This document shows positions 5,529 through 47,801 of a stretch of 64,000 nucleotides of DNA, one piece after another. A model generated the notes under the pieces. The model did no database searches. It was not told where the DNA came from and saw only the letters and a list, made by a program, of their open reading frames with translations. Numbering within the stretch: the first letter of the stretch is position 1; each line of letters starts with the position of its first letter. This DNA is from a virus. Taxonomy: Duplodnaviria; Heunggongvirae; Uroviricota; Caudoviricetes. Both the position numbers and the translations under genes were made by a program. Location of the stretch: the IMG/VR virus record IMGVR_UViG_3300028585_000514; one strand, 5' to 3'.

Positions 5529-5614
5529 GGCCACTTAGCTCAGTTGGTTAGAGCCCCACAATGTGTAGCGCTGCACGTGGAGGTCGTCGGTTCGAGTCCG
5601 GCAGTGAGTCACCA
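5529..5614 (+). ncRNA. tRNA-like RNA with an extended anticodon arm and no 7-nt anticodon loop
   Basis: Canonical D arm, T arm and CCA; 25-nt central hairpin; AATAAATA box at 5516-5523. Confidence 0.7.
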
Positions 5615-7472: not shown

Positions 7473-7578
7473 CATAAAACAAAAATTATAAAGGAAATAT
7501 CATCATGAAAGTTTTATTCTCGTTTGACAAGCAAGACAATCGCAGTACCCACAATTCAAACAAGAAAGATATTTCCGT

Positions 7579-8178
7579 ATGTTGCAATACCCATCAATCG
7601 ACGGGAGCGCGAAAGCTCCGCTAGGCAAACCATGCATCGCTTTTTACAAGTACGACGGCTCCAACCTACGTTGGGAGTGGTCACCTAAAAAGGGATGGCA
7701 CAAGTTCGGCACACGCCGACAACTCTTCGACGAGAAGACTGAACTGTACAATCAGGCAATCCCGTTGTTCCTCGAGAATATTGGCGATGAGCTCGTGTAC
7801 AAAGTCAAGCAACAGAACAAAGGCATCGAACGTATCACTGCGTTCACTGAGTTCTTTGGCCCGTCGAGCTTTGCTGGCTCCCACGATGAGCACGAACAAA
7901 AGGAGCTAAAACTCCTCGACGTGTTCCTATTCAAGAAGGGATTCATCCCGCCTAAGACATTCAAAAAGATGTTTGAAGGTGCGGATTACTTCCCAGAGAT
8001 TATCTACGAAGGTAACCTCAACAAGCAGTTCATTATGGACGTGCGTGATAGCAAATATCCTGTCGACGAAGGTGTCATCTGCAAAGGTGATGACTTCATG
8101 GTCAAGATCAAGACACACGCATACTTTGAAAAACTCCGAAATCAATTTGACGAAAGCTGGATGAACTATGGCGAGTAA
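7579..8178 (+). CDS. ATP-dependent RNA ligase-like nucleotidyltransferase (standalone adenylation domain)
   Basis: Motif I KYDGSN, III EFFG, IIIa LDVFL, IV EGVICK, V KIK. Confidence 0.75.
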   Translation: MLQYPSIDGSAKAPLGKPCIAFYKYDGSNLRWEWSPKKGWHKFGTRRQLFDEKTELYNQAIPLFLENIGDELVYKVKQQNKGIERITAFTEFFGPSSFAGSHDEHEQKELKLLDVFLFKKGFIPPKTFKKMFEGADYFPEIIYEGNLNKQFIMDVRDSKYPVDEGVICKGDDFMVKIKTHAYFEKLRNQFDESWMNYGE

Positions 8179-8497
8179 TGGCTACACCCTGACCGCGAGC
8201 GAAATGCTCAACAACTGGATTCTGAAGTACGATCGAATCTGCATCGCTACCAAGCGTGGCATCAATGGCAATCCTCACAAGATTTGGTTCCGTCGTGGAC
8301 GATCCGAATTCGATGATGCATCACCGTTGACCCACGTGCTGTTCAACGAACTGAAGCGAAACGTTGACATCGCTTGGTTGGGTGGGCCAATGCTCGAAAA
8401 TCTGGCAGCAGTCACGCTCCTCGAAGATGGTAATCTACTCGTCGAGGAGTCCAACCAGCTAGTATCGCTGGACCACTACTATCCTTCATACACATAA
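8168..8497 (+). CDS. Hypothetical protein
   Basis: 109-aa ORF overlapping the ligase stop. Confidence 0.75.
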   Translation: MASNGYTLTASEMLNNWILKYDRICIATKRGINGNPHKIWFRRGRSEFDDASPLTHVLFNELKRNVDIAWLGGPMLENLAAVTLLEDGNLLVEESNQLVSLDHYYPSYT

Positions 8498-8498
8498 T

Positions 8499-8672
8499 AT
8501 GGCAACTGCACGCAACGAATTCACCGGAGAGAAAATCCAAACCAAAGGAGCGACTAACGCGTTCCGCTCAGGTTGGGATACGATCTTCGGTAAGAAAGAA
8601 GTGACCGCTGAACCGGTGGCTGAGGTCGAAGCTGAGACTGAAGAAGTCCAAGTGGAAACCGAAGCTAAATAA
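8499..8672 (+). CDS. Small hypothetical protein (MATARNEFTGEKIQTK...GWDTIFG, acidic tail)
   Basis: 57-aa ORF not in the supplied track; fills the gap with normal codon usage. Confidence 0.7.
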   Translation: MATARNEFTGEKIQTKGATNAFRSGWDTIFGKKEVTAEPVAEVEAETEEVQVETEAK

Positions 8673-8734
8673 AGTTCGACCAAAAAACGGAGTGTGATAT
8701 GATTTCAACATGTCCACTCCGTTAGGGTATTTGT

Positions 8735-9136
8735 ATGCAATTCGATGTTTCCGTAGAAGCAAAATTCCATTTCACTCCAACGATGGAACAGGTCGATCTT
8801 CTGATTGGTATGGCAAAGCGTCATTATGACGCCACGTGTCGAGCAATGGCTGGCGACTATAACCTGTTCACTGCGTCGGATGGTACGGCCGGTACGTTGA
8901 CTACATGGAAGCGTATTCTCGAGAGCTACAATGGTGAGATGCCTACCGACTACCGTGTCATCACCGCCACCTCGCGTCAGCTAGACATCCTCCTGAAGGT
9001 CATGGAAGCGAGCATTGGTTTGTCGAATGAACAGAAAGAAATGCGGGATGAACTCGCGGACGCATTCATCTGCGTACTGAATGCAATGCAGCCGAAATAC
9101 AAGGAATGGAAGCTGTCGGTGGATTCCGATAAATAA
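8735..9136 (+). CDS. Hypothetical protein
   Basis: 133-aa ORF. Confidence 0.8.
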   Translation: MQFDVSVEAKFHFTPTMEQVDLLIGMAKRHYDATCRAMAGDYNLFTASDGTAGTLTTWKRILESYNGEMPTDYRVITATSRQLDILLKVMEASIGLSNEQKEMRDELADAFICVLNAMQPKYKEWKLSVDSDK

Positions 9137-9140
9137 GCTA

Positions 9141-9221
9141 TCCGTCATTATCCACTCTGCCTTCTAAGCAGTTGAAATGGTAACTGGACACATGTAGGTT
9201 CGAATCCTACCTGGCGGGCCA
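9141..9221 (+). ncRNA. Rearranged tRNA-Arg(TCT)-like RNA with no D arm before the anticodon arm
   Basis: Acceptor stem, CTGC-CTTCTAA-GCAG, perfect T arm, CCA; GATAAATA box at 9128-9135. Confidence 0.7.
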
Positions 9222-9310
9222 GACTTGCAAAAGCACTTTCGAAAGGAAGTGCTTTTGTCGTTTCTGTAGTATGATGTGTATGCAGTAACACAACAAAAAT
9301 AATACGCATC

Positions 9311-10003
9311 ATGTCAAAAATATTCCTACCTCCTGCGGCTACCACTACGCCGCTTCCTCATCTAGTCAATGTGTTCTTAGCTGGCAGTATCGAAATGGGT
9401 GTTGCCGAAGATTGGCAAACTCGTGTCGGTAAGGCCCTTAATGCTTTAGAGCCTATTGGTCATGTCTACAATCCGCGTCGTGACGATTGGGATTCTTCCT
9501 GGACTCAGCATATCGACAACCCACAGTTCAATGAACAAGTTAACTGGGAAGTTGATCATATCGAGAAGTCGAACATCATCTTTATGTACTTCGATCCAGC
9601 GACCAAATCGCCAATCTCCCTTCTCGAACTAGGATACATCCTGGGGCTACAGAAAACGTACCAGGGAATCAATGCCCATCGCCGACCAGAGATCATTGTC
9701 TCCTGCCCTGACGGCTTCTGGCGCCAAGGTAACGTTGAAATCATGTGTGCTCGTGCGAACACCGTAGATAATCGATTTACCATCCATCCAAGCTCTGGTG
9801 TGACCTTCTTCCGTGATCCGATGGAAGCCGAGAAAGCCTTGATCGGCCGCGTCTGGTCCAAGCATAAGCAGCTTGCCAATGACTTCCATGTCTTCCCATT
9901 CATCTCGCCGTACGATTCCCAGCGCGAGATAAAAATGTACAGAAATGAAACTCGCGGAACCAAAATTCCAAAGGGTTGGATGCCACCCGAGAAAGACGAA
10001 TAA
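9311..10003 (+). CDS. Nucleoside 2-deoxyribosyltransferase-like protein
   Basis: VFLAGSI...WQ, YNPRR, QVNWE, SPISLLELG motifs. Confidence 0.85.
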   Translation: MSKIFLPPAATTTPLPHLVNVFLAGSIEMGVAEDWQTRVGKALNALEPIGHVYNPRRDDWDSSWTQHIDNPQFNEQVNWEVDHIEKSNIIFMYFDPATKSPISLLELGYILGLQKTYQGINAHRRPEIIVSCPDGFWRQGNVEIMCARANTVDNRFTIHPSSGVTFFRDPMEAEKALIGRVWSKHKQLANDFHVFPFISPYDSQREIKMYRNETRGTKIPKGWMPPEKDE

Positions 10004-10083
10004 ATTTCACGCTTGACAGTGTACAATGTCCTCTTTACTGGGTATACTAGCTATACCATCAATCTGTAAAGAGGAAATCTTAA

Positions 10084-10482
10084 ATGGCAAAGGAAGATAT
10101 GATGGCGATTAATGCAATGCGTCAGGCTGGAGAAGCTCAGGCTCTAGCCTTCGCAAAACGTGAAATCGCTTCGGCATTCAGGGAAGATGATACAATCAAT
10201 GTCCGGCCGATTACCACAGCTTACATTGAGCAAGGTGAAGTCGTCAAGAAATTGACGGCGTCGAATCCGAATAGTGCAATGATGCGAGCGTTTGGTCACA
10301 TGGCCATGAATCACTATGGCGCCAGCGTTGTCCAGGTGTATTCGACCGAAACCGGTCGTTTGTACTGCGAATTTGTCCTCCGTAAGGATGGCAAGCTCGA
10401 AACGACCTTCAAAGCGAATCCGGCAGATTTCGACGATCCGCTTCGCAAAAACGTGGTGCGAGCCACAGCGTTCTTCCTGTAA
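10084..10482 (+). CDS. Hypothetical protein
   Basis: GAGG RBS; early promoter TGTACA(10020)-N17-TATACT. Confidence 0.85.
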   Translation: MAKEDMMAINAMRQAGEAQALAFAKREIASAFREDDTINVRPITTAYIEQGEVVKKLTASNPNSAMMRAFGHMAMNHYGASVVQVYSTETGRLYCEFVLRKDGKLETTFKANPADFDDPLRKNVVRATAFFL

Positions 10483-10488
10483 GAACCG

Positions 10489-10640
10489 ATAAGTCCGAGG
10501 AAACTTGGGCTTATTAAGGGTCTGGTTGTAAAGGGGACAAGAGTTAATCGATGCCAACGATCGCTCTCCTGAACACACCTAGACCAGTGGGTGCCTTGTC
10601 CCTGATAGACTGGGAATAGCAGCCAGACCCTTAATAAGTC
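10489..10640. ncRNA. Putative structured intergenic RNA with a long closing stem
   Basis: About 20-bp stem 10509-10528/10620-10639 plus an inner GGGACAAG/CTTGTCCC stem. Confidence 0.5.
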
Positions 10641-10685
10641 TAACACTTTCAATAAATACTGTACCAAACCAAATAAAGGTACAGT

Positions 10686-11099
10686 ATGTCTAAATTCACA
10701 TTCATCCAACAACTCGAAAACGACATCGAAGATTCGTCGTTGCTTGAGAGCGCAGATAAAACCGCAGGTCTAACTCGCTCAACGTTCTACAAACAGATCA
10801 AAGCAAAACACGAAGAACTCGCGTCCACGCTAGAAGGTTTCTGGGGTCATGTTGACTTCGTCGAATTCGTCGAACTCACTCTGAACAGCATCAAACTCAA
10901 GCGTGGTAAATGGAAGAACCTCGATCAAACTTCGCAGGAACATATGGCGAAACTCGTGGAACTTCACAACAAGCTATTCCCAGCAATCGCGAAAAAGATC
11001 GAACGTCTCCCAAACAACTATTCGAGCAAAGAAGCTGTATCAGCTGCTGCTGCAGGTCGTAAGGCCGAACGCGAATGGTTAGCTGGCATGGGCGCTTAA
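10686..11099 (+). CDS. Hypothetical late protein (MSKFTFIQQLE...)
   Basis: AATAAATA box at 10651-10658. Confidence 0.8.
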   Translation: MSKFTFIQQLENDIEDSSLLESADKTAGLTRSTFYKQIKAKHEELASTLEGFWGHVDFVEFVELTLNSIKLKRGKWKNLDQTSQEHMAKLVELHNKLFPAIAKKIERLPNNYSSKEAVSAAAAGRKAEREWLAGMGA

Positions 11100-25783: not shown

Positions 25784-27550
25784 ATGGCTCTCACTCCTGG
25801 CTTCAAGAAGTTCATCGCCCTGATCGCTACCGTCGGTGTTGTTGGTGGTGGTATCTACGGATACAAAGCAGGCTACTTCGCTTCCAAGGCAACTGCCGAA
25901 TCGCAAGTCCTGGAAAAAATGGATGTCACCGCATCCGCTTCGTCCACCCCGATGCCTTCGTCGGTACTGAACATCGCTCCAGTGACCAGCGGCTTCAAAG
26001 CAAAGCTGCTGACCATCCCCTGGAATGCAACACTCGGTCTGCAATACGCTAACGGTGCACCGACCACTGCACCTGGCTCGATCATGGCAAAGCATGGCGT
26101 CAACTTGACGATCGAACGTCAAGACGACTACGCTCAAATGCTGACCGAGCAAGTCAAGTTCGCAAAAGCTGTCGCAAACGGCGAAGCGAACCCTTCCGAA
26201 GGTGCAGCATTCGTCATCATCATGGGTGACGGCTTCCCTGGCTATGTCGCTGGTGCTCAAGAAGCACTTGGCAAACTCGGTCAACAAATCCAGGTCGTCG
26301 GCTCCGTCGGCTACAGCCGCGGTGAAGACAAGTGCATGATGCCAGCCAACGTCAAGGCTGATGCACAAAAAGCACGTGGTACCCTGATCGGTGGTGTCAA
26401 GGCCGATGGTGACCTGAACATCTGTCTGAAGTGGGCAAGCGACAACGGCATCCCAGTGAACGTCGATGGCTCGACCTACGATCCAAAAGCGATCAACTTC
26501 GTTTACACTGACTCGTTCGTCAAGGCTGACGAGAACTACATCGCTGGCTACTGCGAAAATCGTCCAGTCGTCGACGGTGGCAAGAAGACCGGTGAAACTC
26601 GCAAGGTCTGCCAGAACGGCACCGCTACCTGGACTCCAGGTGACGTGAAGGTCGCTACCAAGAAAGGTGGTCTGGTCTCGATCGCTTCGACCAAAGAATA
26701 CATGTGGCAGATGCCGTCGATCATCATCGGCAACAAAGCATGGATGGAGAAAAATCCGCAGTACGTCGAGAACCTCCTGGCTGCAGCATTCGAAGGTGGT
26801 GAAGCAGTTCGTTCGAACGATGCTGCTCTGACCCAAGCTGCTGACATCGCTGCCAAGGTCTTCAACGAAGAAACCGGCGCTTACTGGAAGCGCTACTTCA
26901 AAGGTGTGGTCGAGCCTGACCTGCAAGGTCAAGACATCCACCTGGGTGGTTCGACTACCAATGGTCTGGGTGACAATGCCTTCCTCTTCGGTCTGAACGG
27001 CAATGACAACCTGTACAAGCGAGTCTACAACGTCTATGGCGGCACCGTTGCCAAGCTGTACCCAGATGTTCTGCCGAAGCTGCTGCCTTACGAAAATGTC
27101 GTGAACACTTCGTACATCCAGTCGCTGCTCGGTAAAGCTACGACCACTGCACAAGCTGTCAAGCCAGAATTCAGCTCGACCCAGCAAGTGACCGGTACCT
27201 TCGCCAAGAAATCGTACTCGATCGAGTTCAAGACCGGCAGCGCAGAGTTCAACTCGTCGGCAATCGCTACCTTGAACGACCTGCTCGACCAAGTCTCGAT
27301 CAGCGGTCTGACGATCCAGGTCAATGGCCACACCGATAACACCGGCAACAGCGAGATCAATCAAGCCCTGTCGAAGAAGCGTGCCGATGCTGTCAAGACC
27401 TGGCTGATGAACAATGCTTCGAGCACCTTCCCAGCCGAACGTATCCGTACCCGTGGTTATGGTGACAGCCAGCCAGTCGCTGACAATGGCTCCGAGTCCG
27501 GCAAAGCTCAGAACCGCCGCGTCGAAATCGTCCTGCTGAACACGAACTAA
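25784..27550 (+). CDS. Substrate-binding protein (NitT/TauT-like) fused to a C-terminal OmpA peptidoglycan-binding domain
   Basis: N-terminal TM; PBP2-like body; F.TGSA, GHTDNTG....N..LS..RA..V, GYG...PVADN...G...NRRVE. Confidence 0.9.
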   Translation: MALTPGFKKFIALIATVGVVGGGIYGYKAGYFASKATAESQVLEKMDVTASASSTPMPSSVLNIAPVTSGFKAKLLTIPWNATLGLQYANGAPTTAPGSIMAKHGVNLTIERQDDYAQMLTEQVKFAKAVANGEANPSEGAAFVIIMGDGFPGYVAGAQEALGKLGQQIQVVGSVGYSRGEDKCMMPANVKADAQKARGTLIGGVKADGDLNICLKWASDNGIPVNVDGSTYDPKAINFVYTDSFVKADENYIAGYCENRPVVDGGKKTGETRKVCQNGTATWTPGDVKVATKKGGLVSIASTKEYMWQMPSIIIGNKAWMEKNPQYVENLLAAAFEGGEAVRSNDAALTQAADIAAKVFNEETGAYWKRYFKGVVEPDLQGQDIHLGGSTTNGLGDNAFLFGLNGNDNLYKRVYNVYGGTVAKLYPDVLPKLLPYENVVNTSYIQSLLGKATTTAQAVKPEFSSTQQVTGTFAKKSYSIEFKTGSAEFNSSAIATLNDLLDQVSISGLTIQVNGHTDNTGNSEINQALSKKRADAVKTWLMNNASSTFPAERIRTRGYGDSQPVADNGSESGKAQNRRVEIVLLNTN

Positions 27551-43159: not shown

Positions 43160-43236
43160 GGCGAGTTAGCTCAGTTGGTTAGAGCAGGAAACTTCAAATC
43201 TCTTGGTCACCGGTTCGAGTCCGGTACTCGCCACCA
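43160..43236 (+). tRNA. tRNA with a TCA anticodon (opal suppressor-like, not Sec)
   Basis: Perfect acceptor, D and T arms; loop CTTCAAA; weak anticodon stem; short variable loop. Confidence 0.75.
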
Positions 43237-44440: not shown

Positions 44441-44518
44441 GCGGTATTAGCATATGGCAATGCATGAGCCTACCTCAAATTGGCTGACTTCAGGTTCGAT
44501 TCCTGATGACCGCTCCGA
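44441..44518 (+). pseudogene. Degenerate tRNA-like element with a Gly-like acceptor
   Basis: GCGGT/ACCGC ends, GCAT/ATGC D stem, TCAGG-TTCGATT-CCTGA; irregular anticodon arm. Confidence 0.45.
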
Positions 44519-47725: not shown

Positions 47726-47801
47726 TGGTGTGTTCGGCAGGTTTCGAAACTGCGACGCAGGCTTTCATATCACCCCGCTCTACCATCTGAGCTACAAACA
47801 C
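47726..47801 (-). pseudogene. Degenerate tRNA, apparent anticodon ATG
   Basis: Good acceptor and D arms and CCA; mismatched anticodon and T stems; loop ATATGAA. Confidence 0.55.

What the first reader, a model, noticed from the sequence alone, without database searches (positions are those of the whole stretch)
9141..9221. Rearranged tRNA-Arg(UCU)-like RNA with the D-loop-like segment after the anticodon arm
Seen: acceptor TCCGTCA/TGGCGGG plus CCA; perfect T arm GTAGG-TTCGAAT-CCTAC; anticodon hairpin CTGC-CTTCTAA-GCAG starting only 9 nt after the acceptor. A 22-nt stretch containing D-loop-like AATGGTA follows the anticodon arm, and a TCCA(9151)/TGGA(9185) helix can enclose both. It has its own late box (9128) and a downstream hairpin (about 9229-9256), so it looks like a dedicated transcript. 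Inference: a non-cloverleaf topology that tRNA scanners would miss, possibly still L-shaped, decoding AGA or acting as a decoy.
Basis: partly seen in the sequence, partly recalled or inferred. Interest (0 to 1): 0.7.

Follow-up and report, generated by a model that had tools for sequence, protein, structure and literature searches.

The report
Rewired phage arginine tRNA
This is an intact member of a large, apparently undescribed family of phage transfer RNAs whose D stem is built from two distant segments that pair around the anticodon arm, so tRNA finders miss it; this copy carries the arginine anticodon UCU.

Summary
Window 9142-9221 (+) is a real, conserved, structured RNA. ARAGORN does not call it and Rfam tRNA scores it 22.4 bits, below the cut-off of 29. 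It matches more than 100 distinct relatives in phage genomes and viral contigs, from Streptomyces, Microbacterium, Vibrio and Bacteroides phages, with a divergent form in Salmonella phage Felix O1.

Covariation supports four helices: acceptor, T arm, anticodon stem, and a 3-bp helix (9152-9154 with 9178-9180) that encloses the anticodon hairpin. That helix is paired in 102 of 102 sequences, with 4-5 pair types per position. Its invariant GG is better read as G18-G19 of a D loop.

Compared with the cloverleaf, block 22-43 seems to have moved in front of block 10-21. Every helix and most tertiary-contact nucleotides are kept.

Anticodons in the family are only Arg, Ile or CAU. Arg members have GGA (A20-like, an ArgRS determinant) and Ile/CAU members have GGU. 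Rewired and canonical Ile(GAU) genes rarely occur in the same array.

Most likely this is a chargeable tRNA-Arg(UCU). Charging and decoding were not tested. I found no published description. Earlier agents of this scan found the same fold on other DNA.

The parts
9142..9148 (+). Acceptor stem, 5' strand (positions 1-7)
   Evidence: Pairs with 9211-9217. Six pairs plus a U-C mismatch at 7:66. All 7 pairs covary in the family.
9149..9150 (+). U8-A9 connector, invariant
   Evidence: Invariant in alignment A2 and in 99 relatives.
9151..9154 (+). 5' strand of the enclosing helix (U, then CCA). Proposed equivalent of canonical 22-25.
   Evidence: 9152-9154 pair with 9178-9180. 100% paired in 102 sequences, with 4-5 pair types per position. 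RNAalifold predicts the helix independently. The mapping to 22-25 is inference.
9155..9156 (+). CU linker (26- and 27-like)
   Evidence: Nearly invariant: C in 99 of 99 and U in 98 of 99. This is partly imposed by one search pattern. The role is inferred.
9157..9171 (+). Anticodon hairpin: 4-bp stem and 7-nt loop with U33, anticodon UCU (9163-9165) and A37
   Evidence: Stem is 100% paired with compensatory changes at all 4 pairs. Family anticodons are only Arg, Ile or CAU.
9172..9177 (+). Invariant 6-nt linker TTGAAA (43/44-like bases plus a GAAA bulge)
   Evidence: Invariant in this sub-family, but it was required by the search patterns. Distant members such as Felix O1 have other linkers. 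In Mildred21 it was misread as a Phe anticodon.
9178..9180 (+). 3' strand of the enclosing helix (TGG). Proposed equivalent of canonical 10-12.
   Evidence: Covaries with 9152-9154. It gives the highest mutual-information pairs of the whole alignment.
9181..9193 (+). D-loop-like and variable-like segment: U13, A14, A15, C, U, G18, G19, A20, C, A21, C, A, U48 (proposed numbering)
   Evidence: The GG is invariant. The base after GG is A in Arg members and U in Ile/CAU members. 9183 and 9193 covary as A-U or G-C, like a Levitt pair. The genome's own canonical tRNA-Arg(UCU) has the D loop AGAUGGAUA.
9194..9210 (+). T arm: 5-bp stem and canonical 7-nt T loop
   Evidence: 98% paired and all 5 pairs covary.
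9211..9221 (+). Acceptor 3' strand (9211-9217), discriminator G73 (9218), encoded CCA (9219-9221)
   Evidence: Arg members have A or G at position 73 in 56 of 62 sequences.
9227..9258 (+). Terminator-like hairpin with T-rich tail, 5 nt after the CCA

Best explanation
The element is a gene for a tRNA-Arg with anticodon UCU, built on a non-cloverleaf body plan shared by a large phage-borne family.

Shown: acceptor stem, T arm and anticodon hairpin are standard. There is no local D hairpin. Instead, three bases just after U8-A9-U pair with three bases that follow the anticodon hairpin and a 6-nt linker. This short helix encloses the anticodon arm. It is followed by an A-A-N-U-G-G-A segment and a 5-nt connector to the T stem.

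Inferred: the gene order is 8-9, then 22-43, a GAAA bulge, 10-21, a 48-like base, then the T arm. This is a swap of two adjacent blocks. The D-stem/anticodon-stem stack keeps 10 layers, as in a cloverleaf. U8, A14, R15-Y48, G18-G19 and the T loop remain available, so an L shape can form.

Inferred: the RNA is cut from the 3' end of the upstream transcript by RNase P and 3' trimming. The host ArgRS charges it through C35, U36, the A20-like base and G73. It then reads AGA, and probably AGG, on the ribosome.
For: 1. The structure is real.
- 97.9% of cells are paired, against 61% in shuffles.
- All 19 pairs show changes on both sides.
- The enclosing helix is 100% paired across 102 distinct sequences.
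- RNAalifold returns the same structure unprompted.

2. This copy is intact. R1 scores it 96.4 bits, near the family maximum of 98.

3. Anticodons are confined to Arg (ACG, UCU, CCU, UCG, GCG, CCG), Ile (GAU, UAU) and CAU. The loop keeps Y32-U33 and A37.

4. Identity-linked features follow the anticodon.
- GGA occurs in 18 of 18 Arg members and GGU in 36 of 37 Ile/CAU members. This subset came from a pattern that left that base free.
- A73 occurs in 37 of 37 Ile/CAU members. A or G at 73 occurs in 56 of 62 Arg members.
- That A20, C35 and U/G36 are ArgRS determinants in E. coli is established knowledge, not tested here.

5. Levitt-like covariation between 9183 and 9193: A-U 77, G-C 10.

6. The genes sit in tRNA arrays, with a median of 8 canonical tRNAs per locus of 15 kb or less.
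- A rewired Ile(GAU) and a canonical Ile(GAU) seldom coexist: 2 of 39 against 25 of 49, Fisher p 1.7e-6.

7. Felix O1 has an unannotated rewired Arg(UCU) at 25951-26032 (R1 52.4 bits). Its genome paper noted that AGA is over-used and that a tRNA for it was expected but not found (PMC3185647).

8. Hosts span Actinomycetota, Pseudomonadota and Bacteroidota. This fits a role in the universal translation machinery.
Against: - There is no direct evidence of expression, processing, charging or decoding.
- In this genome the anticodon is redundant. A canonical tRNA-Arg(UCU) lies about 20 kb away.
- AGA is rare in the phage's ORFs: 2.85 per 1000 codons.
- This copy has a U-C mismatch at 7:66.
- Single-sequence folding does not favour the structure: -16.4 against an MFE of -18.5 kcal/mol, shuffle z-score -0.26.
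- The L-shape model is reasoning from numbering, not a 3D prediction.
- The identity correlation and the array exclusivity come from related sequences. They are not independent events.
- The invariance of the linkers is partly imposed by the search patterns.
Confidence: 0.7

Rival explanations
1. It is a tRNA mimic used as a decoy or shield. It keeps the arginine anticodon loop and tRNA surface to soak up or block a host tRNA-directed nuclease or modifier, and it is not itself used in translation.
For: - The anticodon is redundant with a canonical tRNA-Arg(UCU) in the same genome, and AGA is rare in its ORFs.
- Phage tRNAs are known to counter tRNA-targeting defences (PMC10264068 and PMC11464382, listed; PMC12445682).
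Against: - A decoy does not need a covarying 7-bp acceptor stem, identity-matched discriminators, an A20-like base that tracks C35, or an encoded CCA.
- In other phages the rewired gene seems to fill the anticodon slot instead of duplicating it (Felix O1).
Confidence: 0.13
2. It is the tRNA-like module of a Y RNA (YrlA type) that works with a phage Ro60 protein. Earlier agents of this scan proposed this for other odd phage tRNA look-alikes.
For: A weak Rfam YrlA match over the T arm (13.2 bits). Earlier notes e1-1833011 and e1-1867399 gave this reading for other arrays.
Against: - The YrlA score is far below its cut-off of 69.
- No TROVE/Ro60 match in the 185 kb held, although the controls did match. 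The record is only about 53% complete.
- The element has a full anticodon arm with amino-acid-restricted anticodons.
- It ends in CCA followed directly by a terminator, so there is no Ro-binding stem around it.
Confidence: 0.02
3. It is a decayed tRNA gene or a tRNA-derived attachment-site remnant with no RNA function.
For: Standard finders reject it. IMG/VR classes the record as a provirus.
Against: - Compensatory changes occur at all 19 pairs across 102 sequences from unrelated phages.
- Unpaired bases are invariant, and this copy scores near the family maximum.
- An attachment site would not need both acceptor strands.
Confidence: 0.02

Closest known systems
Canonical bacterial and phage tRNA-Arg(UCU) (Rfam RF00005), for example the copy in this same genome at G000 127854-127930
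   Same: - 7-position acceptor stem, discriminator and CCA.
- 5-bp T stem with a canonical T loop.
- Anticodon loop CU-UCU-AA.
- A GGA motif with an A20-like base.
- U8 and A14-like bases.
   Different: - No D hairpin between positions 9 and 26.
- The D-stem strands lie on either side of the anticodon arm, in the order 22-25 first and 10-13 second.
- The anticodon stem has 4 Watson-Crick pairs plus a U-U.
- An invariant 6-nt linker takes the place of the variable loop.
- Rfam score 22.4, below the cut-off of 29, and no ARAGORN call.
D-arm-lacking mitochondrial tRNAs, such as nematode and mammalian mt-tRNA-Ser (review PMC7609411)
   Same: No local D hairpin, so the secondary structure is a three-way junction.
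   Different: - The mitochondrial forms replace the D arm by a short flexible connector, and often lose the G18-G19/T-loop contacts.
- Here a covarying D-stem-like helix, the GG motif and a canonical T loop are all kept.
- This family occurs in phages of bacteria. The review does not mention phages at all.
Permuted tRNA genes of the red alga Cyanidioschyzon merolae (own knowledge: Soma et al. 2007)
   Same: Segments of a tRNA occur in a non-standard order in the gene.
   Different: - Those genes are circular permutations of the whole tRNA. Processing through a circular intermediate restores a normal cloverleaf.
- Here the 5' and 3' acceptor strands are in normal order. The swap is internal and must persist in the mature RNA.
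allo-tRNAs with 8/4 or 9/3 acceptor/T branches (PMC5389517)
   Same: Naturally occurring non-canonical tRNA body plans found by mining metagenomes, some of them in phages.
   Different: allo-tRNAs keep the four-arm cloverleaf order and change helix lengths. This family keeps the 7/5 branch and changes strand connectivity.
YrlA-type Y RNA tRNA-like modules (Rfam RF02553)
   Same: A tRNA-like T arm and acceptor-like helix, found in phages, and missed by tRNA finders.
   Different: No Ro-binding stem and no Ro60 gene found. A full anticodon arm is present. YrlA score 13.2 against a cut-off of 69.
Phage tRNAs altered to resist host tRNA nucleases (PMC10264068; P2-OLD-resistant phage tRNA-Thr with a shorter anticodon stem, PMC12445682)
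   Same: Phage-encoded tRNAs that depart from host tRNA features. A shortened anticodon stem is compatible with function.
   Different: Those are cloverleaf tRNAs with local changes. No nuclease is known that this rewiring would evade.

Membership tests
Canonical cloverleaf tRNA (Rfam RF00005) | Acceptor stem of 7 pairs, a discriminator and a CCA end | tested here: met
   9142-9148 with 9211-9217 (6 pairs plus a U-C mismatch), G at 9218, CCA at 9219-9221. The pairs covary in the family.
Canonical cloverleaf tRNA (Rfam RF00005) | T arm of 5 pairs with a 7-nt T loop | tested here: met
   9194-9210. 98% paired, and all pairs covary.
Canonical cloverleaf tRNA (Rfam RF00005) | Anticodon arm with a 7-nt loop, U33 and a purine at 37 | tested here: met
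   9157-9171. The stem has 4 Watson-Crick pairs plus a flanking U-U.
Canonical cloverleaf tRNA (Rfam RF00005) | Local D hairpin between position 9 and the anticodon arm | tested here: not met
   Only 6 nt lie between A9 and the anticodon stem. The Rfam alignment skips the D arm. ARAGORN makes no call.
Canonical cloverleaf tRNA (Rfam RF00005) | Score at or above the Rfam gathering threshold (29 bits) | tested here: not met
   22.4 bits.
Canonical cloverleaf tRNA (Rfam RF00005) | Aminoacylation and decoding on the ribosome | not testable with these tools
   There is only indirect support: anticodon restriction, an A20-like base tracking C35, and array exclusivity.
   9152-9154 with 9178-9180. 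The family is 100% paired, with 4-5 pair types per position.
   All invariant bases are present. R1 scores it 96.4 bits, within a family range of 60-98.
   Anticodon UCU with GGA.
YrlA-type Y RNA with Ro60 | Match to RF02553 at or above 69 bits | tested here: not met
   13.2 bits, over the T arm only.
YrlA-type Y RNA with Ro60 | Ro60 (TROVE, PF05731) gene in the same genome | tested here: not met
   No match in the 184,871 bases held. Controls matched. The record is about 53% complete, so absence is not proven.
D-arm-lacking mitochondrial-type tRNA | D arm replaced by a short unpaired connector, with loss of the D-stem | tested here: not met
   A covarying D-stem-like helix exists, made of distant strands, and the GG motif is kept.
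Permuted tRNA gene (circular permutation) | The 3' half is encoded upstream of the 5' half, with acceptor strands in reversed gene order | tested here: not met
   The acceptor 5' strand lies at the 5' end. The 3' strand plus CCA lies at the 3' end.

The most novel reading that the evidence does not exclude
The block-swapped core is a phage-specific tRNA body plan that is fully active in translation. It persists because the rewiring removes a feature, such as the normal D arm/anticodon-stem junction, that host tRNA-directed defence nucleases or other tRNA-binding factors need. On this reading phages carry nuclease-proof Arg and Ile tRNAs. The milder claim, a naturally occurring and translationally active non-cloverleaf tRNA used across bacterial phyla, I put at about 0.6.
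Probability: 0.2. Interest if true: 0.9.

Novelty: new variant of a known kind. Interest (0 to 1): 0.78.

Why it matters
- If these RNAs are active, the cloverleaf order of arms is not required for a bacterial-type tRNA. A 2024 paper states that all known bacterial tRNAs are canonical (PMC11551756, abstract).
- The family would show which 3D contacts the synthetases, EF-Tu, RNase P and the ribosome really need.
- It also exposes an annotation gap. These genes are unannotated in most phage records examined, or misnamed or overlaid by protein-coding calls in a few. Phage tRNA repertoires and codon-supply analyses are therefore incomplete. One example is the AGA tRNA that the Felix O1 genome paper expected and did not find.
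- Such scaffolds could serve as orthogonal tRNAs for genetic-code engineering.
- They may bear on the arms race over tRNA-targeting defences.

Tried and rejected
- Metatranscriptome contigs from four leaf-litter RNA runs were laid on 7500-10800. Contigs cover 7704-8543 and 9771-10629, and none covers 8610-9720. Short structured RNAs are poorly captured and contigs cannot show absence, so this says nothing either way.
- Single-sequence thermodynamic folding does not single out the structure.
- An alternative local hairpin (9169-9173 with 9182-9186) is 85% paired but has no compensation when the anticodon stem changes. Rejected as the conserved fold.
- I considered reading the invariant TTGAAA as a Phe anticodon loop, as Mildred21 is annotated. 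Rejected, because no closing stem exists and the flanking bases covary with 9152-9154.
- Late promoter: the 7-of-8 match lies inside the end of a coding region. TATAAATA occurs 19 times in the genome, with only some copies near ORF starts. Not established.
- Pfam on neighbouring ORFs found only a nucleoside 2-deoxyribosyltransferase-like protein downstream, at 9311-10003. No linked partner protein was seen.
- Eight literature searches and one review found no description of this fold. The library lacks most subscription journals, so prior publication cannot be excluded.
- Pattern scan of 185,579 species genomes: 22 hits, of which only 8 are real members. Seven are on MAG contigs. At least one of those matches an IMG/VR viral contig in length, so they may be binned phage DNA. 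One is in an isolate, Pedobacter nyackensis, and matches an IMG/VR viral contig (L099) derived from an isolate genome. I therefore treat the family as phage-borne.

Full report
**What is in the sequence.** Positions 9142-9221 on the + strand read as follows:
- a 7-position acceptor strand (9142-9148);
- U-A (9149-9150), then U (9151);
- CCA (9152-9154), then CU (9155-9156);
- a 4-bp stem with a 7-nt loop carrying UCU (9157-9171);
- a 6-nt linker (9172-9177);
- TGG (9178-9180);
- a 13-nt segment containing TGGA (9181-9193);
- a perfect T arm (9194-9210);
- the acceptor 3' strand (9211-9217), G (9218) and CCA (9219-9221).

A terminator-like hairpin follows at 9227-9258. The upstream ORF on the same strand stops at 9136. 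ARAGORN finds 32 tRNAs in the window but not this one. The Rfam tRNA model gives 22.4 bits against a cut-off of 29. It skips the D arm and places an insert in the variable region.

**Relatives.** The core is 83-88% identical to a site in 16 Streptomyces phage records.
- In Mildred21 the site is annotated tRNA-Phe(gaa).
- In other records it is unannotated or overlaid by an endonuclease ORF.
- Three pattern scans of IMG/VR contigs brought in about 135 loci.
- I built covariance model R1 from 11 sequences. It finds more than 150 hits of 60-98 bits in those loci.
- R1 finds exactly one hit in the window and one in the whole 184,871-base genome record.
- Cultured carriers also include Microbacterium and Vibrio phages and a crAss-like Bacteroides phage.
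- Felix O1 carries a divergent, unannotated copy at 25951-26032 (52.4 bits).
- Among 185,579 species genomes, only 8 real members appeared. Seven are on MAG contigs. At least one of those matches an IMG/VR viral contig in length, so they may be binned phage DNA. One is in a Pedobacter isolate and matches an IMG/VR viral contig (L099) derived from an isolate genome.

**Structure.** On 102 distinct sequences, the four-helix structure is 97.9% paired against 61% in shuffles and 35-47% when partners are slid. All 19 pairs show changes on both sides.
- The 3-bp helix 9152-9154 with 9178-9180 is paired in every sequence, with 4-5 pair types per position. It gives the top mutual-information pairs of the alignment.
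- RNAalifold predicts the same structure without being told.
- The positions of the new helix were left free in all search patterns. The invariant linkers were partly required by them, and distant members have other linkers.

**Reading of the fold (inference).** Going 5' to 3' towards the anticodon, U-CCA-C-U plus the stem corresponds to canonical 22-31. Coming back, the stem plus U-U corresponds to 39-44. GAAA is an extra bulge, and TGG-U corresponds to 10-13. The following A-A-C-U-G-G-A-C-A corresponds to 14-21, and the last three bases end in a 48-like U.

So block 22-43 has moved in front of block 10-21. The stack keeps 10 layers, as in a cloverleaf. All new connections join points that are neighbours in the canonical L shape.

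Three observations fit this mapping:
- The GG is invariant.
- 9183 and 9193 covary as A-U (77) or G-C (10), like the R15-Y48 Levitt pair.
- The genome's own canonical tRNA-Arg(UCU) has a D loop of the same pattern.

**Function.** Family anticodons are ACG, UCU, CCU, UCG, GCG and CCG (Arg), GAU and UAU (Ile), and CAU.
- In the subset found with a pattern that left the base after GG free, Arg members have A in 18 of 18 and Ile/CAU members have U in 36 of 37. The discriminator is A in all 37 Ile/CAU members, and A or G in 56 of 62 Arg members.
- A20, C35 and U/G36 are the known ArgRS determinants in E. coli (established knowledge).
- The genes lie in tRNA arrays.
- Arrays with a rewired Ile(GAU) almost never have a canonical one: 2 of 39 against 25 of 49. 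The loci are related, so this is not a clean probability.
- The Felix O1 genome paper noted over-use of AGA and the lack of a matching tRNA (PMC3185647). The rewired gene fills that gap.
- Together these favour a chargeable, decoding tRNA-Arg(UCU).

**Points against, and limits.**
- This genome also has a canonical tRNA-Arg(UCU), and AGA is rare in its ORFs. A special role, such as a decoy or a nuclease-resistant spare, remains possible.
- The Y RNA reading raised by earlier agents is not supported here. YrlA scores 13.2 bits, no TROVE gene is present in the held half of the genome, and a full anticodon arm is present.
- RNA contigs from leaf-litter metatranscriptomes do not cover the element, which is uninformative.
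- Expression, processing, charging and 3D shape are untested.

**Context.** The record is an IMG/VR virus contig from leaf litter, 48% G+C, about 53% complete, with 49 ARAGORN-called tRNAs. One neighbouring gene is distantly related to genes of jumbo phages of Ralstonia, Caulobacter and Xanthomonas. The host is unknown.

**Novelty.** I found no published description. A 2020 review of non-canonical tRNAs does not mention phages. Earlier agents of this scan reported the same fold on other DNA. I checked the Felix O1 claim myself.

Noticed in passing
window 43160-43236 and 44441-44516 (+): Two tRNAs with anticodon UCA, which ARAGORN labels SeC. The first scores 67 bits on the Rfam tRNA model. They look like opal-suppressor-type tRNAs. 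TGA ends 49 of 211 long ORFs in the genome.
   Followed up: no
window 5529-5611 (+): A tRNA-like element just after a terminator hairpin. It has a normal D arm and T arm, a 17-nt loop on a 4-bp anticodon stem, and a poorly paired acceptor top. Rfam tRNA scores it 33.6 bits and ARAGORN makes no call.
   Followed up: partly
window 47726-47801 (-): ARAGORN calls a tRNA-His with anticodon AUG (A34), which is unusual. Its Rfam score is the lowest of the array, at 40.2 bits.
   Followed up: no
L001:1494-1569 (Streptomyces phage Mildred21, record 91367-91442): This is annotated tRNA-Phe(gaa). By the family structure it is a rewired tRNA-Arg(UCG). The 'gaa' is the invariant linker that happens to fall at the usual anticodon distance.
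   Followed up: yes
L173:25951-26032 (Salmonella phage Felix O1, NC_005282): An unannotated rewired tRNA-Arg(UCU) with a different linker. Its 3' end is overlapped by the annotated start of an HNH endonuclease CDS at 26003.
   Followed up: yes
L009:10186-10349 (-): Two rewired tRNAs in tandem, 4 nt apart: Arg(UCU) and Arg(CCU).
   Followed up: partly
L076:5182-5350, L055:1558-1807, L030:310-390, L086:4358-4438, L064:4970-5049: More divergent non-cloverleaf tRNA-like genes with Ile, Arg or CAU anticodons (R1 33-50 bits, no ARAGORN call). They have other linkers, and several carry a TGAAAAT-like stretch after the GG. The rewired plan seems to have several sub-types.
   Followed up: partly
L158:2189-2268 (Pedobacter nyackensis DSM 19625): The only isolate genome with a family member (CAU anticodon). 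It lies next to a canonical tRNA-Ile(GAU) and is identical to the copy on an IMG/VR viral contig derived from an isolate genome, L099.
   Followed up: partly
window 9157-9159 with 9169-9171: The conserved anticodon stem holds a paired CUG/CAG. This is the CNG-type motif that P2-OLD is reported to cut in anticodon stems (PMC12445682). Whether that matters here is unknown.
   Followed up: no
window 7704-8543 and 9771-10629: Contigs from leaf-litter metatranscriptome libraries match these neighbouring stretches exactly. The phage, or its DNA, was therefore present in those RNA libraries.
   Followed up: no
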